Virus record (IMG/VR): IMGVR_UViG_3300021255_000050
Location: 32,001-96,000 of that record
Length of the DNA: 64,000 nucleotides
Reading direction: 5' to 3' (one strand)
Source of the DNA: a virus
Taxonomy: Duplodnaviria > Caudoviricetes
Under the pieces are notes generated by a model. The model saw only the letters and a list, made by a program, of their open reading frames with translations. It did not search any database and was not told the origin of the DNA. The position numbers and the translations under genes are program-made. Below are positions 16,448 to 59,770 of this stretch, piece after piece (the first letter of the stretch is position 1; every line of letters begins with the position of its first letter).

Positions 16448-18917
16448 GTGACCTACATGCAGTATGTATATAAAAGAGATGGAAAGAAGCAAGCTTTTGA
16501 CTCTAATAAAATCATAACTGCAATCACAAAATCCATGGAATCGACGGGCGATATAGATGAAGCGCTCGCCAAGCATATAGCTGACAAGATATCAGAGATA
16601 CCAGACAACATGAACGTAGAAGATATCCAAAACCTTGTTGAACAACACCTGATGGATAGCGATAGGAAGGATGTAGCGAAAGCTTACATCATTTACAGAG
16701 CTGAAAGAACCAGGATAAGGCAGAAGAACAGCGCAATCATGAAGCTGTTTGCCGAGAAGCTGACCGCAAAGAACATCGAGAACCAGAATGCAAACGTGGA
16801 TGAAGCGTCTTTCGGCGGCAGAATCGGCGAGGCTGCTGATGCTATGATGACGCAGTATGCCCTTGACAACTGCATGACCGAGAAGTCTCGCAGGAACCAT
16901 GAAGAGAACAGGATTTACATCCACGACAGGAACAGGTATGCCGTTGGTCAGCATAATTGTCTAACTATTCCTTTCGATGATCTGCTGGCCAATGGTTTCA
17001 ATACAAGACAGACGGATGTGCGCCCCGCAAACTCTATCAACACAGCCTTCCAACTGTTGGCTGTTATCTTTCAGCTTCAATCTCTGCAGCAGTTTGGTGG
17101 TGTTGCCGCTGGCCATCTTGACTGGACCATGGTTCCGTATGTGAAGAAGAGTTTTTACAAGCACTTTCAGGATGCGCTGAAGTATATTGGTACTGATGAA
17201 GATAGGGAACTGTATCAGTATGCGAAGCCAACGTGGAGTATTGATGAATACCCTGTCAGTGCTGGCAATAAGCTATTTGATTATTCCATGAACATGACGC
17301 TCAAGGAATTGAAGCAGGCTGTTGAAGCGCTTTACCATAATCTCAATACTCTGCAGTCCCGCAGTGGCAACCAGCTGCCATTCAGCTCCATTAACTACGG
17401 CACATGCACGCTGCCTGAAGGAAGAATGGTAACGAAGGCTCTGCTTGAAGGTCTTATCAATGGCGTTGGTAAGCTGCACAAGACATCCATCTTCCCTTGT
17501 GGAATCTTCCAGTACAAGAAGTTTGTTAATGATAAGCCAGGAACCCCGAACTATGATCTTTTCAGGCTGGCACTGAAGGCTACATCTATGAGACTGTATC
17601 CGAACTACGCGAACTGCGATTGGTCAGGCAATGATGGCTATGATCCGAATGATCCTCGCACGTACTTCGCTACAATGGGATGCCGTACAGCAAATGGCTG
17701 GGATATAAACGGTTTCGGCCAGCTGAAAGACGGACGAGGAAACATCTGTCCTGTAACAATCATTCTGCCGACTGTAGCAATGGAAGCTACCGAGTATGCA
17801 GAAGAACACAATCTGGATAAGGTCGAGTACTTTATGACTTATCTTGCCAACGTAATCGAAGATGCGAAGGATATGCTTATTGAACGGTTTGAATATATCT
17901 GTTCGCAACCGCCTGAGTCTGCTAAGTTTATGTACGAGAACGGCGTTATGGCTGGATATATTCCTGAAGAAGGCACACGGTCGGCACTCAAGCATGGCAC
18001 ACTCGCTATGGGCCAACTCGGTCTTGCTGAAACGCTGCAGATTCTCATCGGTTGCAACCATACAGAGCCGAGAGGTATGGATTTGGCAAAGAGAATCGAG
18101 CAACTGTTCGCCGCCAAGTGCAAAGCATACAAAGAAAACTATAAGCTAAATATAGGCGTTTACTATTCACCATCCGAAAACCTATGTTACACAGCCATGA
18201 ATAAATTCAAAGACAGATATGGTGAGATCAAGAACGTCAGCGACCGTGCATACTTCACAAACAGCATGCATATTCCTGTATGGGAAAAGATCGGAGCATT
18301 CCAGAAGATTGATCTTGAATCTCAGCTTACAGGCTACTCAAGCGCCGGCTGTATTACATATATCGAGCTTGAAAGTTCTGTGAAGAATAACATTGATGCA
18401 ATTGAAACGTATGTCACCTATGCAATGGAGCATGACATTCCGTACTTTGCAATAAACGTTCCGAATGACACATGCCTTGAATGTGGATACACAGATGAAT
18501 TCAACGATAGATGTCCGGTGTGTGGCTCAACAAAAATACAAAGACTGCGGCGTGTTACTGGGTAGAATTATGCCCCTCTTAACAGTGATGTTTAGAGCAA
18601 ACCTCTTTAATTGCTGGAAACTCCTGCAAAGGATAATCAGCAGCCAAGTCTCGTAAGAGAAAGGTTCAACGACCATCCCGCAAGGGAGTAGGATCAAGTG
18701 ATCCGAAATGGGAGGCGGCTCAACAGAGTCGATGATATGGTCTGATCTCTGCAGCAATGTAGAGCTGTCGAAAGACGCATATGTAGTAACGAAACATATG
18801 GAACATAATGATCTCAGCGCCGACTATACCACATCGTTTAATCCAGGAAAACAAGCAGAAGTAAAGGATCGAATAAAGCATACAACATATGCAAGCTTCA
18901 AGGACAATATTTCCTAA
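16448..18917 (+). CDS. nrdD: Anaerobic (class III) ribonucleotide reductase with ATP cone; join(16448..18563,18811..18917)
   Basis: KRDG ATP cone, HNCL, TMGCRT, CxxC..CxxC; splicing restores the glycyl-radical loop RRVTGYLS...FNPGKQAEVKDRIKH. Confidence 0.93.
18564..18810 (+). ncRNA. Group I intron (IA2-like, 247 nt, no ORF) in nrdD
   Basis: P1 exon GGGU/GCCC with U.G at the 5' site; AAUUGCUGGAAA P element; P3 CCUCU/GGAGG; P7 GACCA/UGGUC; terminal G at 18810. Confidence 0.92.
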
Positions 18918-39734: not shown

Positions 39735-42700
39735 TTACCAGCTAAGTCTTGTAGTTGCGATGCCTTGACCTGAGATCTGCTTTACAAATTCCTGGCCGAC
39801 CTTCTCGGCGAGTTCCTGAAGATCGAGGTTGTCATTCAGTTGGTTCGTGCTTACGTGAATGTCGCCGACGGTAACGGTTGGCTTACCTGTCAGCATATCG
39901 GAGCGGAACGCGGTCGAGAACATGGGGACGCTCACGCGAGAGAACGCGCTGATCATCTTGCGCATGTCAGCCATAACGCCGCTGTCGAGCAAGCCACGAA
40001 TCATTTCGCGGTCATCGCTGTTAAGGAAAGCTTCGGGCTTGGACTTAGTGCCGTCAACCCATGCCGGGCCGGTGTAATCTACGAGGCCGCCACTCTTGTA
40101 TTCTGAAACATTGATCTTGTTCTTTAATGCTTGCGCATAACCATGTACCATTCTTACTGTTGTTGCTACATCACCATATCGCTGTGGGTTTGCATTAACA
40201 AAAGACGCGGCCAATTCATCCAGCATAGCTTCGGCAGCCGCTCTTGCTTCTTTTTCCGTTCGGAAACCTTGAAGGGTTCGTCCCTGGAATCCATGCGCCG
40301 TTTCCCATCCAGCTTGATATCTCTTTATTGTTGCAATTTTCTCGTCGCTGTTAGCATTTTTGTTTGCACCACTGTTGGTATTGCCACCGGTGTTGCCGCC
40401 GCCATTACCGCCACCGCTGCCATCGCCGCCGTTGTAATTAGCAAAGTTCTCGTCGCTGTGGAAATATGTAGCCATATCTTGCATTGCTGCAATCCATGCA
40501 TCATATGAACCAGAGCCGGCATCTACATCGAGCCACTGATAAAGAAGTTGCTTACGCTTGTCGTCACTGGCTGTCTGGTATTCATCGGAGGCCATCATAT
40601 AAGCTGCGAAGGATTCTCTGTCACCGAGTATGTTATGCACTTCATCCCAGTAGGTATCAAGAATGTGCAGCATCTGCTTATAGGTATCGGTCCAACTCTG
40701 AACCATTTGTGTTTGTGCATCTTCAATACTGTAAGTGTATTCCTTTACATTTTTCTTCAGCCAATCAAAAAGCTCTGTCTGGTTAAGCTTCATAACTCCA
40801 TTAACCTCTTCGGCAAAGTTATTAGCATCACGCAGCAAGCGCTCCAGATCTTCGTCACCATATGTTACGTACTGATCGTAAGCTTCGATCTCGTCGTCCA
40901 TGCTCTTCTTCTGTGCTTCTACTTGTTCTTCTGCGATCTTCCAGCCGCGCTCTTCCTGCAGATCATCGATCTTCTTCTGCAGCTCCTTCACATCTTTCGT
41001 GCGGGTGCTGTCCATGCTGATAAGAGCAAGCTGCCTCTGGTATTCAGCAAGCTCTTCGGCCTTCTTGGCTTCGTTACTTGCGTCCTTCCTGCGCTGGAGT
41101 TCTTCGTCAATATACTGTTTCTTCTTTTCGAGAGCTTCCTTCTCTTTTTCAACGCCCTTCTTAATGAGCAATATGTTGGCGCAGCAGGTTGTCATCCTTG
41201 CGCCGTTATACAGTGCACTTAAATATACTGCCAGTGGAAACCGCCGGCGGTTTTGCGCAGACCACAAGCAGCTCGCCGAACCATCTCTTTTCCGGGGAGA
41301 CTTTGCGTGGCCGCTTTTGCGCTGGGATAAATAACACCGGTCTCAACACACAAGACCGGTTTCGAATTTATTTCTGCTAGCTTTTGCTTTGTTTCCTCTG
41401 AGTGGTGGAACCCTGTTTTTACTGCACTCATCTTCTTTCGGTACTCCTCTGTATGCATTGCGTTAACGATCTTCTGATGCACCTCTGGTTCCGCAAGTAT
41501 CTGGCGCCGAAGCTCGATGTACTCCGGGTGTTCTTCAATGTATCGGTGCAAGCTTTCGATCCGGCGAGCTGTTACTTCGGGCGAAACCTCGCGACCACCT
41601 TCACCGCCGGCTGTCATGTTGTAGCCGTACTCCGGGTTGTTCGAATGGTAAGCTGCGATGAACCGTTGCTCTTCGCTGTTGAGCGAATCAATGCTGCAGG
41701 GTTCGAGGAGGAAAGCATCGAAAGCTTCGGGACCATACTTATTATATGCGTACTGCAGATGAGTGTTAGGGTGGGAACCGCGCTTTAGTTTACTCATGTG
41801 TTCTTTCAATCTCCTATCTACGTTTTTGGACTGGCCAATATAACACTTATTATTTACCATGTTTCGAATCATGTAGATACCACTTTGAATGCAACCACCT
41901 GCCTTAGGTGGCACTGTATAACCCTCACACTTTCATGCGAGTTCAGACTATATCTTGTGTGCGCAGCAAAGCGCAGCACACCAACCGCTTCGGCAGCAAT
42001 GACGGGGCGCTGCCTACTCCATATAGGATAGTCGTTGAACCTTCTTCTCAGCGGGCTTTGCAAAGTCTTATGAGAAGCTTGGCTGCTGATTGCCCGTGTA
42101 CATCCGCGCCATTTTCGAGCATTCGCGTTTGCTCTCGCGAGCTGCGCTGTAGCTGGCGGGCTTTGGGGTGTTCCAGCAATTCGATTGGTAGGGACCGTAT
42201 AATCCCATTCGTCTTGGTAGCGTTGTTTAATCGCGTCGAGAACCGTCGTTTCCATTTGGACGCGAGCATCGAGCATGTCGCGCTGGATCTGGATGCGGTT
42301 CCGAATTTCCTGATCAACGAGGTCTTCGAGATCAGTATGCGTTTTGAGGATAGCTTGCTCGTTCTGTTTCATCTTCTTGGTGTTCGCGTCAATTGTATTG
42401 TTAGTTTCGTCTAACTGCTCTTCGTACTGCAGCACTTGCTCGTAAAGTTTTTGCCAGTCGTCGGAACCACGCTCTGTCGCGGCAAGCTGCTCGCGAAGCT
42501 TCGTGATCGCGTCGGCGAGGACCACGCTCTTCTCGCGCTGCAGCTCGTTCTCGTACTCGATCATATTGTTGACGTTGCCGAGCTGGCCGAGCTGTTCGTA
42601 CTTGGTTTCCTGGAGTTGGGTCATCTTGATGCGGTGATCGGCAAGAGTAATTTTGTTCTTGAGGTTTTGGAGAAGCTTGTCGGCTGCAGATTTACCACCG

Positions 42701-57376: not shown

Positions 57377-58186
57377 TTGCCCATTCCATCCCCTGCATAT
57401 CCTTTTCTGCTGTAATAGGAACGTTAGCGAAAAGCGCAAGGAGACCGCTGGCAACATTTGCGGAATCACCACGGAGGGGGTTCGCCTGCTCGATAATCTT
57501 GCCGGACTCTTTTGCAAAAGCATTGCCGGCATAATTAACAGCGGCTTCGTAATTCAAGCGCTTGCCTAGCGCTTTAAGGACTGCTTTGAAGAACGGGATA
57601 CTCATGTTATTGATCTTATCCTCGTTAACTTCACCTAAATGAACAGCGACAGCAGCAACAGCTTCATCAAGAGTTAGCCCATCGTCGCCGCTGTCGCCAT
57701 CCGGTTTTTTACTTGTTCCTCCATCTCGTCAATCTTGTTCAAGCGGCAGAAGATGTCGAGCAAGTTGTAAATATCTGCAGAGGTCATGTTGTCGAAGTGC
57801 TTCTTCGTAAAGGCTGCATCATCAACAACACAGGTTACCCAGTCCATGAGGCACTTTGTAGGCGTACGCTTTTCGTCAAAGTAATCATCAGGAAGCTGGA
57901 AGATGTAGGGAAGCGGCATGCTTTTCAGCACCCTGTAAAAACCAGCAACACCATTACGCTGGTAGAACATGCGCGTTGCTTTTATCTCTATAGTAACGCC
58001 GTCACATGTGAACATATTTTGCATGTTCTCAGCCGGCGGGATTGGCTTGCTGGATATTTCTTCTGAAGGCTGCGGTTCCGAAATCACTTCTTCTTTCGGG
58101 AGATCGCTGGCTTCAATATCTTCATCAGGCAGTGTACCGGGGTTCGGCACCTTTTCTGTGGGAAGCTTCTTCGGCATAATCATCAT
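57369..58186 (-). CDS. Tail assembly chaperone (57674-58186) and -1 frameshift extension to 57369 (gpG/gpGT-like)
   Basis: Slippery A AAA AAC at 57710-57704; the -1 frame is open (PDGDSGDDGLTLDEAVAA...MSIPFFK...) to the stop at 57369. Confidence 0.85.
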
Positions 58187-58196
58187 CTCTTCTTTT

Positions 58197-58229
58197 TAAA
58201 AAAGGGCTGCCAGTGTTAGTAGCAGCCCT
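58197..58229 (-). terminator. Terminator after the second terminal exon of the major tail gene
   Basis: AGGGCTGCTA-CTAACAC-TGGCAGCCCT-TTTT. Confidence 0.75.
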
Positions 58230-58234
58230 ATAAG

Positions 58235-58389
58235 TTAGCTTGAATATTTGTCCGTATCGTAGTTGGACTCGTCGTACTTGGATTGCTGTCCGTACCCCTT
58301 GCTTACAATGCCAACCTGCCAAGCGATGTTGTCATCGCCGCCGGGGTCCATTGTAGACAGGGTGAGCGGAAATGTAGCTGCTGATTTGT
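58235..58389 (-). CDS. Major tail protein terminal exon B (distal)
   Basis: (T)AC-AAA... = YKSAATFPLTLSTMDPGGDDNIAWQVGIVSKGYGQQSKYDESNYDTDKYSS*; preceded by G58390. Confidence 0.8.
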
Positions 58390-58429
58390 CATTTACATTC
58401 AGCATAGATCGCTACACTATGCTCGCGCT
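58390..58429 (-). ncRNA. Duplicated group I intron 3' end (P9-type hairpin + terminal G)
   Basis: AGCGCG-AGCAUAG-UGUAGCGAU-CUAUGCU-GAAUGUAAAUG, homologous to the 3' ends of both upstream introns. Confidence 0.8.
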
Positions 58430-58542
58430 TTAGGACGACTTCTTCTTGGGATTGTCGATGATGCCAACCTGCCATGCAATAGCATCGTCATCGCCACGGT
58501 CCATCGTGGAGAGAGTCAGCGGGAAGGTAGCAGCAGACTTAT
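58430..58542 (-). CDS. Major tail protein terminal exon A (proximal)
   Basis: (T)AT-AAG... = YKSAATFPLTLSTMDRGDDDAIAWQVGIIDNPKKKSS*; preceded by G58543. Confidence 0.85.
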
Positions 58543-58804
58543 CATATGTATTCACCGCAGTTCGCTGGGCTGCAGTCGCGCCTTAAGCACTGCTCTATGT
58601 CGCCATAGAGATTAGACCATATCTTCATCTCAAGTTGAGAGGCTACCGTTTCGACCACCAATCGCTTGTGGCCTACTCCCATATGGGATGGTCGTTAGAG
58701 TCTATGCGTATAACGCACTTGCTACGGGATTGTCTCGTAGAGAGTTTCCCCGTTTAGGTAGCTTTTGCATGCAGCTCACGCTGCAAGGAACCTATTGTTT
58801 GCTA
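58543..58804 (-). ncRNA. Group I intron 2 of major tail gene (262 nt; 415 nt if the distal 3' site is used)
   Basis: P1 exon GAGCU/GGUUC (U.G); AAACGGGGAAAC; P3 GCUACC/GGUAGC; P7 GACCA/UGGUC; P7.1/P7.2 hairpins (IA2-like). Confidence 0.9.
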
Positions 58805-58816
58805 AGCTCGTGTCAA
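58805..58816 (-). CDS. 12-nt microexon of major tail gene (TTGACACGAGCT)
   Basis: Flanked by intron 1 terminal G and intron 2 P1; its first 6 nt pair perfectly with the intron 1 guide UGUCAA (P10); gives PG-FDTSY-KSAAT. Confidence 0.88.
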
Positions 58817-59094
58817 CAGTGTGTGTTCAGCATGGTTCGCAACACCATGCCCGCTTTTCAGCTGCTGCATATCACTATGCAGATCGGACTATATCTTCAT
58901 CCATTTTCATGGAGCTTCCCATTTCGAACGCCATATGCTTGCGTCCTACGCCGTAAGGCTAGTCTCTAGGCTTTTTGCATACTCTTTTCAGGTATGCATT
59001 TAGCACGGTAGGTTGTCTTACGCTGCCGTAAGAGTTTCCCCGTTTAAGGAAGTGTCAGTATGCATTGCTGCATAAAGGACCTTGACAAATGTAA
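58817..59094 (-). ncRNA. Group I intron 1 of major tail gene (278 nt)
   Basis: P1 exon GGCU/GGUC (U.G); P10 UGUCAA/UUGACA; P3 CUUCC/GGAAG; P7 GACUA/UAGUC; terminal G 58817. Confidence 0.92.
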
Positions 59095-59770
59095 AGCCAG
59101 GAAGAGTGGTCACGCGGGTCTTGAAGATACGAACCACAGCATACTTGATGATGCCGCTTTCTTCGCACTTCTTACCGTCGTTGTAGATAGGCCACTTAAG
59201 GATAACTTCGCCGCAAGCCACGTCCCTGTTGTTGATGTTAACAACATTGGCAGTGGAATCTGCAGTCTCGTAGAAGATCTCCATCTCGTCGGTTTCATCA
59301 TCAGAGAACAGGACCGTCTTTGCTTCGGTATCAACATAGTAATAACCGGACGCAACAGGAGTGCCAGAAGCCTGTTCCTTCAGACCATTGATATACACGG
59401 TGCCAGCGGCCGGCTTATAGGTCAGGGTAACCTTGTGGGTAGTGGCATCGGGAGTAAGAGACTCGCTGACAGGAACCAGGAAATTGGGATCGTTCACGAA
59501 ATCAGCAGCATTCGCGGCAGCAAAGATTTCGGGCATGAAATCGCCCAGAGTGATCTGGATGTCCATGGTGGACTGGCCAGGGATGTTAGCAGAAGCATAA
59601 GCGGACCACCCAGAGCGAACCTCAATGAAGTCCACCTGAGGATTCAGGGAGCACTGCGTAACATGCTTGCTTGTAAAGACTTTCTTGTCGCCACCGCGCC
59701 TAAAGTAGAACTGCGGAACGTCGACAATGTAGCCGCCAAACTGTGGTACATATTTGGTTGCCATAAGCAT
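59095..59770 (-). CDS. Major tail (tube) protein exon 1
   Basis: Between the tail-completion gene and the frameshifting chaperone; beta-rich, high-expression codon bias; ends ...RVTTLPG. Confidence 0.85.

What the first reader, a model, noticed from the sequence alone, without database searches (positions are those of the whole stretch)
58390..58590. Competing helices that could act as the exon-choice switch
Seen in sequence: intron 2 segment GUGCUUAAGG (58590-58581) has two possible partners. It can fold locally with the adjacent GGCGC (5 bp, 2 G.U), which positions the proximal hairpin and G58543. Or it can pair at 9 of 10 positions with CCUAAAGCGC (58434-58425, spanning the exon A stop codon), which loops out exon A and docks the distal hairpin and G58390. 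Intron 2 also lacks an obvious P10 to either exon, unlike intron 1. The distal hairpin matches intron 1's terminal hairpin at 21/25 nt with a compensatory A-U/G-C swap. Inference: a two-state RNA fold sets the isoform ratio.
Basis: partly seen in the sequence, partly recalled or inferred. Interest (0 to 1): 0.78.

Follow-up and report, generated by a model that had tools for sequence, protein, structure and literature searches.

The report
One intron strand, two exon partners
[quoted passage not shown] One short intron strand can pair with either copy, which is probably how the RNA picks the protein ending; no spliced RNA has been seen yet.

Summary
GUGCUUAAGG (58590-58581) is the 5' strand plus loop of helix P9.1 of the second of two tandem group I introns in a tail-tube gene of a 115-kb uncultured gut phage. 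It can close a 5-bp local hairpin with GGCGC. It can also pair 9/10 with CCUAAAGCGC (58434-58425); folding extends this to 15 bp.

The distal partner is not a chance match. It is the duplicated P9.1 3' strand of a second "3' splice cassette" (strand, P9.2 hairpin, about 11-nt tail, terminal G) in front of exon B.

- Three diverged lineages with an intron at this codon carry 2-3 such exons. Intron-less relatives carry one.
- Paralogous exons differ mostly at third codon positions, so each is under protein-level selection.
- The docking strand GUGCUUA is invariant.
- The best downstream complement abuts a distal cassette in all three lineages, and folding favours the long-range helix by 3-6 kcal/mol.
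- The tape-measure intron of the same phage closes a 694-nt loop with the equivalent helix.

Still missing: spliced RNA (the one metatranscriptome gave no junction) and compensatory covariation in P9.1. One distal exon in a relative has no cassette.

I read this as docking-site/selector exon choice, probably set kinetically. The scan noted similar alternative 3' sites in two other phage genomes.

The parts
59095..59770 (-). Exon 1 of the tail-tube gene (225 codons; ends GGCU, and the last U is codon position 1)
   Evidence: ORF and translation. phrog_2729 virion structural protein, E 2e-12. Homologues carry a precomputed PF27173 YomU_Tube assignment.
58817..59094 (-). Intron 1 (group I, 278 nt); terminal G at 58817; P10 UUGAC/GUCAA
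   Evidence: RF00028, 68.1 bits. An allele without this intron in a sheep-metagenome contig joins LPGF|DTS exactly here.
58805..58816 (-). 12-nt micro-exon UUGACACGAGCU (codons F-D-T-S plus the first base of Tyr)
   Evidence: The intron-less homologue P0007 reads ...LPGFDTSYKS.... Coordinates.
58543..58804 (-). Intron 2 (group I, 262 nt to the proximal terminal G58543); P1 is GAGCU|UA with UAGGUUC
   Evidence: RF00028, 53.1 bits. Consensus fold with relatives has 37 pairs with compensatory changes.
58581..58590 (-). Docking strand: P9.1 5' strand GUGCU plus loop UAA and GG; the shared partner of both 3' strands
   Evidence: Sequence. GUGCUUA is invariant in the three alternative-exon introns and is one of only nine invariant runs of 6 nt or more.
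58578..58582 (-). Proximal P9.1 3' strand GGCGC (local 5-bp hairpin, 2 G.U)
   Evidence: Sequence. The local hairpin forms when enforced as a constraint.
58554..58576 (-). Proximal P9.2 hairpin (7 bp; loop CCCAGCGAA), followed by tail 58553-58544 and G58543
   Evidence: Alignment A6 and pair counts: 100% of cells paired, 6 of 7 pairs compensatory. Model R1 scores it 49.1 bits.
58430..58542 (-). Exon A (short, canonical C-terminus ...IAWQVGIIDNPKKKSS*)
   Evidence: Translation. Matches the C-termini of intron-less homologues. The junction is seen as DNA in an intron-less relative.
58425..58440 (-). Distal selector. AGCGC (58429-58425) is the duplicated P9.1 3' strand. With CCUAA and AGUCGU it pairs with 58590-58574 (15 bp, two single mismatches) and covers the exon A stop codon.
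   Evidence: Duplex and minimum-energy folds.
58401..58423 (-). Distal P9.2 hairpin (7 bp; loop UGUAGCGAU), followed by tail 58400-58391 and terminal G58390
   Evidence: A6 and pair counts. R1 scores it 54.6 bits. 21/25 identical to the hairpin of intron 1.
58235..58389 (-). Exon B (long C-terminus ...IAWQVGIVSKGYGQQSKYDESNYDTDKYSS*)
   Evidence: Translation. Orthologous B-type tails occur in L004 and L001/L009 and as the stand-alone small ORFs P0014, P0015 and P0018. Codon-position pattern.
58203..58229 (-). Terminator-like hairpin plus U-run. It is the only such site on this strand in the gene region and lies after exon B, not after exon A.

Best explanation
The 10-mer is the 5' strand plus loop of helix P9.1 of a group I intron that interrupts the tail-tube gene after ...FDTS. 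The end of that intron, together with the last exon, has been duplicated in tandem. The duplicated intron part is a cassette: the P9.1 3' strand, the P9.2 hairpin stacked on it, a tail of about 11 nt starting GAA, and the terminal G.

One catalytic core and one 5' splice site therefore face two cassettes. The single P9.1 5' strand acts as a docking site. Each cassette's 3' strand acts as a selector.

- Pairing with the proximal strand makes a weak 5-bp triloop hairpin. It places G58543 in the G-binding site and joins exon A, giving a 266-aa protein with the canonical short end.
- Pairing with the distal strand makes a helix of 9-15 bp. It loops out the proximal cassette and exon A, much as a homing-endonuclease ORF is looped out of L9.1 in other introns. 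It places G58390 and joins exon B, giving a 280-aa protein with a Tyr/Asp-rich 22-aa extension.

Only one partner can be bound at a time, so the exons are mutually exclusive. The distal state is the more stable one, but its strand is transcribed about 150 nt later. The isoform ratio is therefore most likely set kinetically: the rate of splicing from the proximal state against transcription and strand displacement.

Shown here: the sequences, the homology of the two strands, the conservation, the P9.2 covariation, coding selection on both exons, and the predicted energies. Inferred: that exon B is spliced, that P9.1 exchange is what selects it, and that the control is kinetic.
For: 1. Architecture. 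Two RF00028 introns. The cassette alignment A6 shows P9.2 paired in 100% of cells with compensatory changes in 6 of 7 pairs, against 18-45% paired when the partners are slid. A model of the cassette finds only the known intron ends plus the end of one more intron.

2. Conserved multi-exon layout. The window has 2 exons, L004 has 2, and L001/L002/L009 have 3, all with an intron at FDTS|. L003, L005/6/8 and L007, which lack an intron there, have 1.

3. Coding selection on every copy. Differences by codon position: winA/winB 8, 7, 24; L001 A/C 2, 1, 14; winB/L004B 21, 16, 33. All seven exons start A[UC] AA[GA], which restores Tyr-Lys. An own start codon in frame with exon B is not conserved: it is in frame in the window, but not in L004 or in front of L001 exon B.

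4. B-type tails in three further lineages occur only as stand-alone small ORFs. None is fused to a tube body in 1.84 billion representatives.

5. Docking strand. GUGCUUA is invariant while only 53% of intron columns are. It sits among core-element runs. Relatives with a single 3' site vary it (CAGCU, CUGCU, UGUC) and cap P9.1 with a GAAA tetraloop instead of UAA/UUA.

6. The best complement of the 10-mer abuts a distal hairpin in all three lineages.

7. The long-range helix is in the minimum-energy fold of the segment from P9.1 to the distal G in all three lineages. Ensemble ddG is -5.4, -3.0 and -6.2 kcal/mol. Pair probability is about 0.99 in the window.

8. Precedent in the same genome. The tape-measure intron has an 11-bp P9.1 closing a 694-nt loop that holds a GIY-YIG ORF, followed by a hairpin, a 9-nt tail and G before exon 2.

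9. The only terminator-like site follows exon B.
Against: - No spliced RNA was seen. The one metatranscriptome holding this phage gave two contigs (inside intron 1 and inside exon 1) and no junction.
- P9.1 has no compensatory change among the alternative-exon introns. The pairing rests on conservation and on one G-C/C-G swap against single-site relatives.
- Part of the extra complementarity (UUA/UAA) comes free from duplicating a near-palindromic hairpin.
- L001/L009 exon B has an intact, conserved reading frame but no selector strand and no cassette.
- In a wider sequence context L004 folds with the local hairpin instead.
- Secondary-structure energies ignore the ribozyme's tertiary fold and any proteins.
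- Only three lineages with DNA were available.
Confidence: 0.55

Rival explanations
1. Alternative splicing to exon B is real, but cassette choice does not depend on the P9.1 strand exchange. Each cassette docks through its P9.2 loop (conserved YAGCGAA), the GAA tail and the terminal G. Whichever docks first is used. The conserved distal GCRC strand is kept for another contact.
For: L001/L009 exon B keeps its frame and the family tail motif without any selector or cassette. L9.2 AGCGAA is as invariant as the docking strand. P10 is weak or identical for all the exons, so other contacts must matter.
Against: The 3' strand sits in the same register, directly stacked on P9.2, in every cassette. 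It pairs with the one 5' strand in all six cases. The 5' strand is frozen only in the multi-exon introns. The long-range helix is energetically dominant.
Confidence: 0.22
2. Only exon A is spliced. Exon B with its cassette is an unused remnant of a tandem duplication or of recombination between intron alleles. The complementarity is a by-product of copying half of a near-palindromic hairpin.
For: Intron-less homologues have only A-type ends. The distal strand is homologous to the proximal one. No RNA evidence for exon B.
Against: Third-position-biased divergence between the paralogous exons and between orthologous B exons. No frameshift or stop in any of seven exons in three lineages. The Tyr junction codon is kept. 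The B tail motif is conserved in six lineages. The B cassette is better conserved than the exon it precedes, and its stem covaries. The terminator lies only after the last exon.
Confidence: 0.12
3. The two folds form a regulated switch. A protein or ligand (for example a phage late protein, Mg2+ or temperature) stabilises one state, so the isoform ratio changes during infection.
For: Two mutually exclusive structures exist. In the window the long helix also consumes the proximal P9.1 3' strand and the P9.2 5' strand.
Against: No aptamer-like conserved element was seen. Rfam finds nothing but the introns. The closest precedent, C.te.I1, looked constitutive (PMC3919590 abstract).
Confidence: 0.08
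4. The tandem exons are an assembly artefact that merges two strain variants.
For: All the data come from metagenome assemblies.
Against: Contigs from three separate runs span exon A, the distal cassette and exon B with 0-1 differences. The same layout is found in independent assemblies of two other lineages.
Confidence: 0.01

Closest known systems
Clostridium tetani C.te.I1, an alternatively splicing group II intron (McNeil, Simon and Zimmerly; PMC3919590)
   Same: A bacterial-type self-splicing intron with one 5' part and several downstream 3' splice sites. It produces protein isoforms that differ in their C-terminal part and appears constitutive.
   Different: That intron is group II, in a bacterial S-layer gene, and RNA evidence exists for it. 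Here the intron is group I, in a phage tail-tube gene. The repeated unit is P9.1 3' strand/P9.2/terminal G, and there is no RNA evidence yet. That its repeated units are domains 5-6 is from my own memory and was not checked here.
Exon skipping by tandem group I introns: phage Twort orf142 (a tail-tube gene), SIOphi polymerase, Coxiella 23S rRNA (PMC11878797; PMC10136302)
   Same: Phage group I introns of the IA2 kind lie in tandem around a very short exon in a tail-tube gene. More than one ligated product is possible.
   Different: Those cases skip or include a micro-exon. None has duplicated, mutually exclusive terminal exons with their own 3' cassettes. Here skipping the 12-nt exon would also stay in frame, but that is a separate matter.
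T4 sunY (nrdD) intron: ORF looped out of the 3' peripheral domain, with a remote 3' splice junction that activates the core (Michel et al. 1992; own knowledge, not in the searchable library)
   Same: A long-range peripheral helix closes a long insert, followed by a short terminal domain and the terminal G. The tape-measure intron of this phage shows the same design.
   Different: In sunY the insert is a homing-endonuclease ORF and there is one 3' site. Here the insert is a complete alternative cassette plus a coding exon, so closing the helix changes the product.
Docking-site/selector-sequence control of mutually exclusive exons in Drosophila Dscam1 exon 6 (Graveley 2005; own knowledge)
   Same: One docking sequence can pair with only one of several selector sequences, each placed just upstream of an alternative exon.
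   Different: That system is spliceosomal, eukaryotic and protein-assisted, with dozens of variants. Here the competing helix is part of the ribozyme itself. This is a resemblance in logic only, not membership.
Two tail-tube isoforms made by programmed frameshift in siphophages (SPP1 gp17.1/gp17.1*, Ig-like C-terminal additions; own knowledge)
   Same: Tube subunits share the same body and have either a short or an extended C-terminus, produced from one gene in a set ratio.
   Different: That mechanism is translational frameshifting, not RNA splicing. The extension here is only about 22 aa and its role is unknown.

Membership tests
Group I intron (Rfam RF00028) | Covariance-model score above the curated gathering cut-off (50 bits) | tested here: met
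   Intron 1 scores 68.1 bits and intron 2 scores 53.1 bits.
Group I intron (Rfam RF00028) | P1 with a U.G pair at the 5' splice site, and a terminal G at the 3' splice site | tested here: met
   GGCU|UU with AAGGUC; GAGCU|UA with UAGGUUC. G58817, G58543 and G58390. The junctions match intron-less alleles and homologues.
Group I intron (Rfam RF00028) | Conserved core helices supported by covariation | tested here: met
   The consensus fold of five related introns has 65 pairs, 37 of them with compensatory changes, covering P1-P6, P7.1/7.2, P9 and P9.2. RNAalifold did not draw P7 and P8 correctly; they were read by eye.
Group I intron (Rfam RF00028) | Self-splicing activity | not testable with these tools
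   Needs in vitro transcription and splicing, or RNA from infected cells.
Alternative 3' splice-site use by a self-splicing intron (C.te.I1-like logic) | Two or more complete 3' splice modules downstream of one core, each in frame with the 5' exon | tested here: met
   There are two cassettes in the window (R1: 49.1 and 54.6 bits). Both joins are in frame without stops, giving 266 and 280 aa.
Alternative 3' splice-site use by a self-splicing intron (C.te.I1-like logic) | Each alternative exon maintained by selection | tested here: met
   Codon-position bias and intact frames in seven exons of three lineages. The tail motif is found in six lineages.
Alternative 3' splice-site use by a self-splicing intron (C.te.I1-like logic) | Both ligated products observed in RNA | tested here: inconclusive
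   The single RNA run holding the phage gave no contig across any junction.
Docking/selector (competing-helix) exon choice | One docking strand complementary to a selector in front of every alternative exon | tested here: inconclusive
   Met for window A and B, L004 A and B, and L001 A and C. Not met for L001/L009 exon B.
Docking/selector (competing-helix) exon choice | Pairing supported by compensatory covariation or by mutational rescue | tested here: inconclusive
   The docking strand is invariant. Changes are one-sided only (U.G to U-A). There is one G-C/C-G swap against single-site relatives. Mutational rescue is not testable here.
YomU_Tube tail-tube family (PF27173) | Profile match and tail-module gene context | tested here: inconclusive
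   A precomputed PF27173 assignment exists for the window ORF and its homologues. My own Pfam scan of exon 1 alone found nothing at E 0.01. phrog_2729 matches at E 2e-12. The neighbours in relatives are YonB, YomX_C and a 4,473-5,105-aa tape measure.

The most novel reading that the evidence does not exclude
A natural ribozyme carries out mutually exclusive exon choice by the docking-site/selector logic known from Dscam, with no spliceosome and no proteins. One frozen P9.1 strand is handed from a weak proximal partner to a stronger distal partner as transcription proceeds. The phage thereby makes a fixed mixture of two (three in a relative) tail-tube subunits from one gene. Together with the two similar cases the scan noted in other phage genomes, this would make cassette duplication at group I intron 3' ends a general phage route to protein isoforms.
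Probability: 0.45. Interest if true: 0.85.

Novelty: new variant of a known kind. Interest (0 to 1): 0.72.

Why it matters
According to the review text read here (PMC10136302), group I introns show only cryptic-site use and exon skipping. I found no paper describing conserved, duplicated terminal exons with their own 3' splice cassettes.

If exon B is used, this is protein-isoform production by a ribozyme in a virus of bacteria. The selection mechanism would be written entirely in RNA pairing and could be tested with one synthetic transcript.

It would give RNA biologists a minimal, protein-free model of mutually exclusive splicing and of co-transcriptional strand exchange. It would give phage biologists a third way, after frameshifting and read-through, to mix tail subunits with different C-termini.

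There is also a practical consequence. Gene callers currently give this tube protein false ends and call exon B as an orphan 56-aa ORF.

Tried and rejected
- **RNA evidence.** One run search and one read-laying were allowed. The only RNA run (X7, same sample as DNA run X2) gave two contigs, 58850-59032 (inside intron 1) and 59491-59756 (exon 1). No junction was covered, so it says nothing for or against either exon.
- **More lineages.**
  - Protein-pattern scans of viral contigs, metagenome contigs and genome contigs gave only L005-L011, all of one-exon or already known types.
  - Two DNA-pattern scans of viral contigs found nothing.
  - An alignment of B-type tails was too variable to scan with, and P0015 was too short.
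  - tblastn against 50,697 cultured phage records found no relative of the tube protein or of exon B. blastn there matched only intron cores.
- **Structure of the tube protein.** AlphaFold2 on P0007 with 6 sequences gave mean pLDDT 55.9, and the C-terminal part was below 50. It cannot place the alternative tails and was not searched further.
- **P10 as the selector.** Rejected. It is absent in the window and identical for both exons in L004 (ACAAG/CUUGU).
- **Separate translation of exon B from its own start.** Rejected as a general mechanism. The AUG in the cassette is in frame only in the window, not in L004 or in front of L001 exon B, and has no obvious ribosome-binding site.
- **Selector for L001 exon B.** A search for a cryptic cassette or complement in front of it found none.
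- **Pfam.** My own scan of exon 1 and four neighbouring ORFs gave no hit.
- **sunY paper.** It could not be found in the searchable library.

Full report
**Setting**

The window is part of a complete 115,379-bp virus record with terminal repeats. DNA runs holding it come from animal gut and sheep metagenomes.

On the minus strand, 59770-58235 is a virion structural gene. It matches phrog_2729 at E 2e-12. The unspliced ORF and its homologues carry a precomputed PF27173 YomU_Tube assignment. It lies upstream of a tape-measure ORF of several thousand codons.

Rfam finds two adjacent group I introns in it, at 68.1 and 53.1 bits.

**Splice sites**

The intron-less homologue P0007 reads ...TTLPGFDTSYKSPATFPLTLSTMD...GIIDNVKN*. 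This fixes the following parts:

- exon 1 ends at 59095 (GGCU|);
- the micro-exon is 58816-58805 (UUGACACGAGCU);
- exon A starts at 58542.

DNA contigs confirm two of these joins. A sheep-metagenome contig is identical over 58101-58814 but lacks intron 1, joining LPGF|DTS. A second relative lacks both introns and joins FDTS|YK at 58542.

Intron 1 has P1 GGCU|UU/AAGGUC and a 5-bp P10. Intron 2 has P1 GAGCU|UA/UAGGUUC and no convincing P10 to either exon.

**The observation**

**What the two partners are**

Eight intron ends from this family were aligned. They share one unit: a P9.1 3' strand ([A/G]GCGC or GCAC), directly followed by a 7-bp P9.2 hairpin with a 9-nt loop of consensus NNYAGCGAA, then GAA, a short tail and G.

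- P9.2 is paired in 100% of cells, with compensatory changes in 6 of 7 pairs. Slid controls give 18-45% paired.
- A covariance model of this cassette finds, in 94 kb, only these ends plus the end of one further intron at 18770-18811.
- The distal partner is therefore the P9.1 3' strand of a second, complete 3' splice cassette. The two 'competing helices' are one helix with two alternative 3' strands.

**Is exon B real?**

Every lineage with an intron at FDTS| carries several terminal exons: two in the window, two in L004, and three in L001/L002/L009. Lineages with no intron there (L003, L005/6/8, L007) carry one.

- All seven alternative exons begin A[UC] AA[GA], giving Tyr-Lys after the micro-exon's U.
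- All have open frames.
- The terminator-like hairpin follows only the last exon.
- Paralogous and orthologous exon pairs differ mainly at third codon positions: window A/B 8, 7, 24; L001 A/C 2, 1, 14; window B/L004 B 21, 16, 33. This is the signature of protein-level selection on each copy.
- B-type tails share a Tyr/Asp-rich motif in six lineages. In a profile search of 1.84 billion representatives they appear only as small stand-alone ORFs, never fused to a tube body.
- An in-frame AUG in front of exon B exists only in the window, so splicing is the only general way to express it.

I put the probability that exon B is spliced at about 0.8.

**Is the helix exchange real?**

*For:*
- The docking strand GUGCUUA is invariant in the three multi-exon introns, where 53% of columns are invariant. 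It is one of nine invariant runs of 6 nt or more; most of the others lie in elements of the catalytic core and one is the L9.2 loop motif AGCGAA.
- Three relatives with a single 3' site vary this strand and cap P9.1 with a GAAA tetraloop rather than UAA/UUA.
- In each of the three lineages the strongest complement of the 10-mer anywhere downstream is the site that abuts a distal P9.2. Between 15 and 23 of 300 shuffles reach the same energy.
- Folding the segment from P9.1 to the distal G puts the long-range helix in the minimum-energy structure in all three lineages. Ensemble differences are -5.4, -3.0 and -6.2 kcal/mol relative to the enforced local hairpin.
- In the window the helix extends to 15 bp (58590-58574 with 58440-58425). 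It consumes the proximal P9.1 3' strand and the base of the proximal P9.2.
- The tape-measure intron of the same phage has an 11-bp P9.1 (41921-41911 with 41216-41206). It closes a 694-nt loop holding a GIY-YIG ORF and is followed by a hairpin, a 9-nt tail and G before exon 2. A long insert at exactly this place is therefore a working design in this genome.

*Against:*
- No compensatory change in P9.1 can be seen, because the shared strand never varies.
- Part of the extra pairing follows automatically from copying a near-palindromic hairpin.
- In a wider context L004 folds locally.
- Exon B of L001/L009 has neither a selector nor a cassette.
- Energies ignore tertiary structure.

**Mechanism proposed**

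This is docking-site/selector choice of the 3' splice cassette. The distal state is more stable but is made about 150 nt later, so the ratio is more likely kinetic than an equilibrium of two folds.

The products would be tube subunits of 266 and 280 aa that differ only after ...AWQVGI. This is analogous in outcome to frameshift-made tube isoforms of other siphophages (own knowledge).

**Comparison with the known**

- Group I alternative splicing on record is cryptic-site use and exon skipping: Twort orf142, SIOphi and Coxiella.
- The nearest design is the group II intron C.te.I1 of C. tetani.
- The sunY-type remote 3' junction and Dscam docking/selector pairing are resemblances recalled from memory.
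- Literature searches found no description of this arrangement.
- The scan itself noted alternative 3' sites of group I introns in two other phage genomes. I did not check those notes.

**Verdict**

This is a new variant of a known kind, and a single self-splicing assay could test it.

Noticed in passing
window 41206-41921 (minus strand): The tape-measure-gene intron has a perfect 11-bp long-range helix (UUAUACAGUGC with GCACUGUAUAA). It closes a 694-nt loop that holds a GIY-YIG ORF, followed by a hairpin, a 9-nt tail and G before exon 2 (CUC AUU AAG AAG). This is a sunY-like layout.
   Followed up: partly
window 58805-58816 with 59095 and 58542/58389: Skipping the 12-nt micro-exon would also stay in frame (..LPG-YKS.., 262 or 276 aa). 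The two flanking introns are similar, as in the Twort orf142 exon-skipping case.
   Followed up: no
window 58814-59106: Intron 1 is a presence/absence polymorphism. A sheep-metagenome contig identical over 58101-58814 lacks it and reads LPGFDTS uninterrupted, while keeping intron 2 and both exons.
   Followed up: partly
L001 5073-5104 (and the same stretch in L009): The middle of the three alternative exons in this lineage is preceded by CCCAAAACUUAAAUUGGGAUGUGGGGAUUGUUUGACAUG. It has no P9.1 strand and no P9.2-type hairpin, yet the exon keeps its frame and the B-type motif. How or whether it is spliced is unexplained.
   Followed up: partly
window 18554-18811 (plus strand): A third group I intron (82 bits) ends with the same cassette type: P9.1 with a GAAA loop, P9.2, and GAACAUAAUG. 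It has a single 3' site. The host gene was not identified here.
   Followed up: no
window 58850-59032: A metatranscriptome contig lies wholly inside intron 1. It could be stable excised intron RNA, unspliced precursor or DNA carry-over.
   Followed up: no
window 59018-59770 and 58235-58405; proteins P0001, P0004-P0006, P0009, P0010: Public protein predictions for this tube family end in false tails read from the intron (for example ...FDTSLANNRFLAA, ...LLNGEPLTLLAAA). Exon B is called as an orphan 56-aa ORF.
   Followed up: partly
L003 4571-4862: A relative carries a homologous intron at a different codon of the same gene (after LKWP) and has a single last exon. This tube gene is an intron hotspot with at least three insertion sites.
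   Followed up: partly
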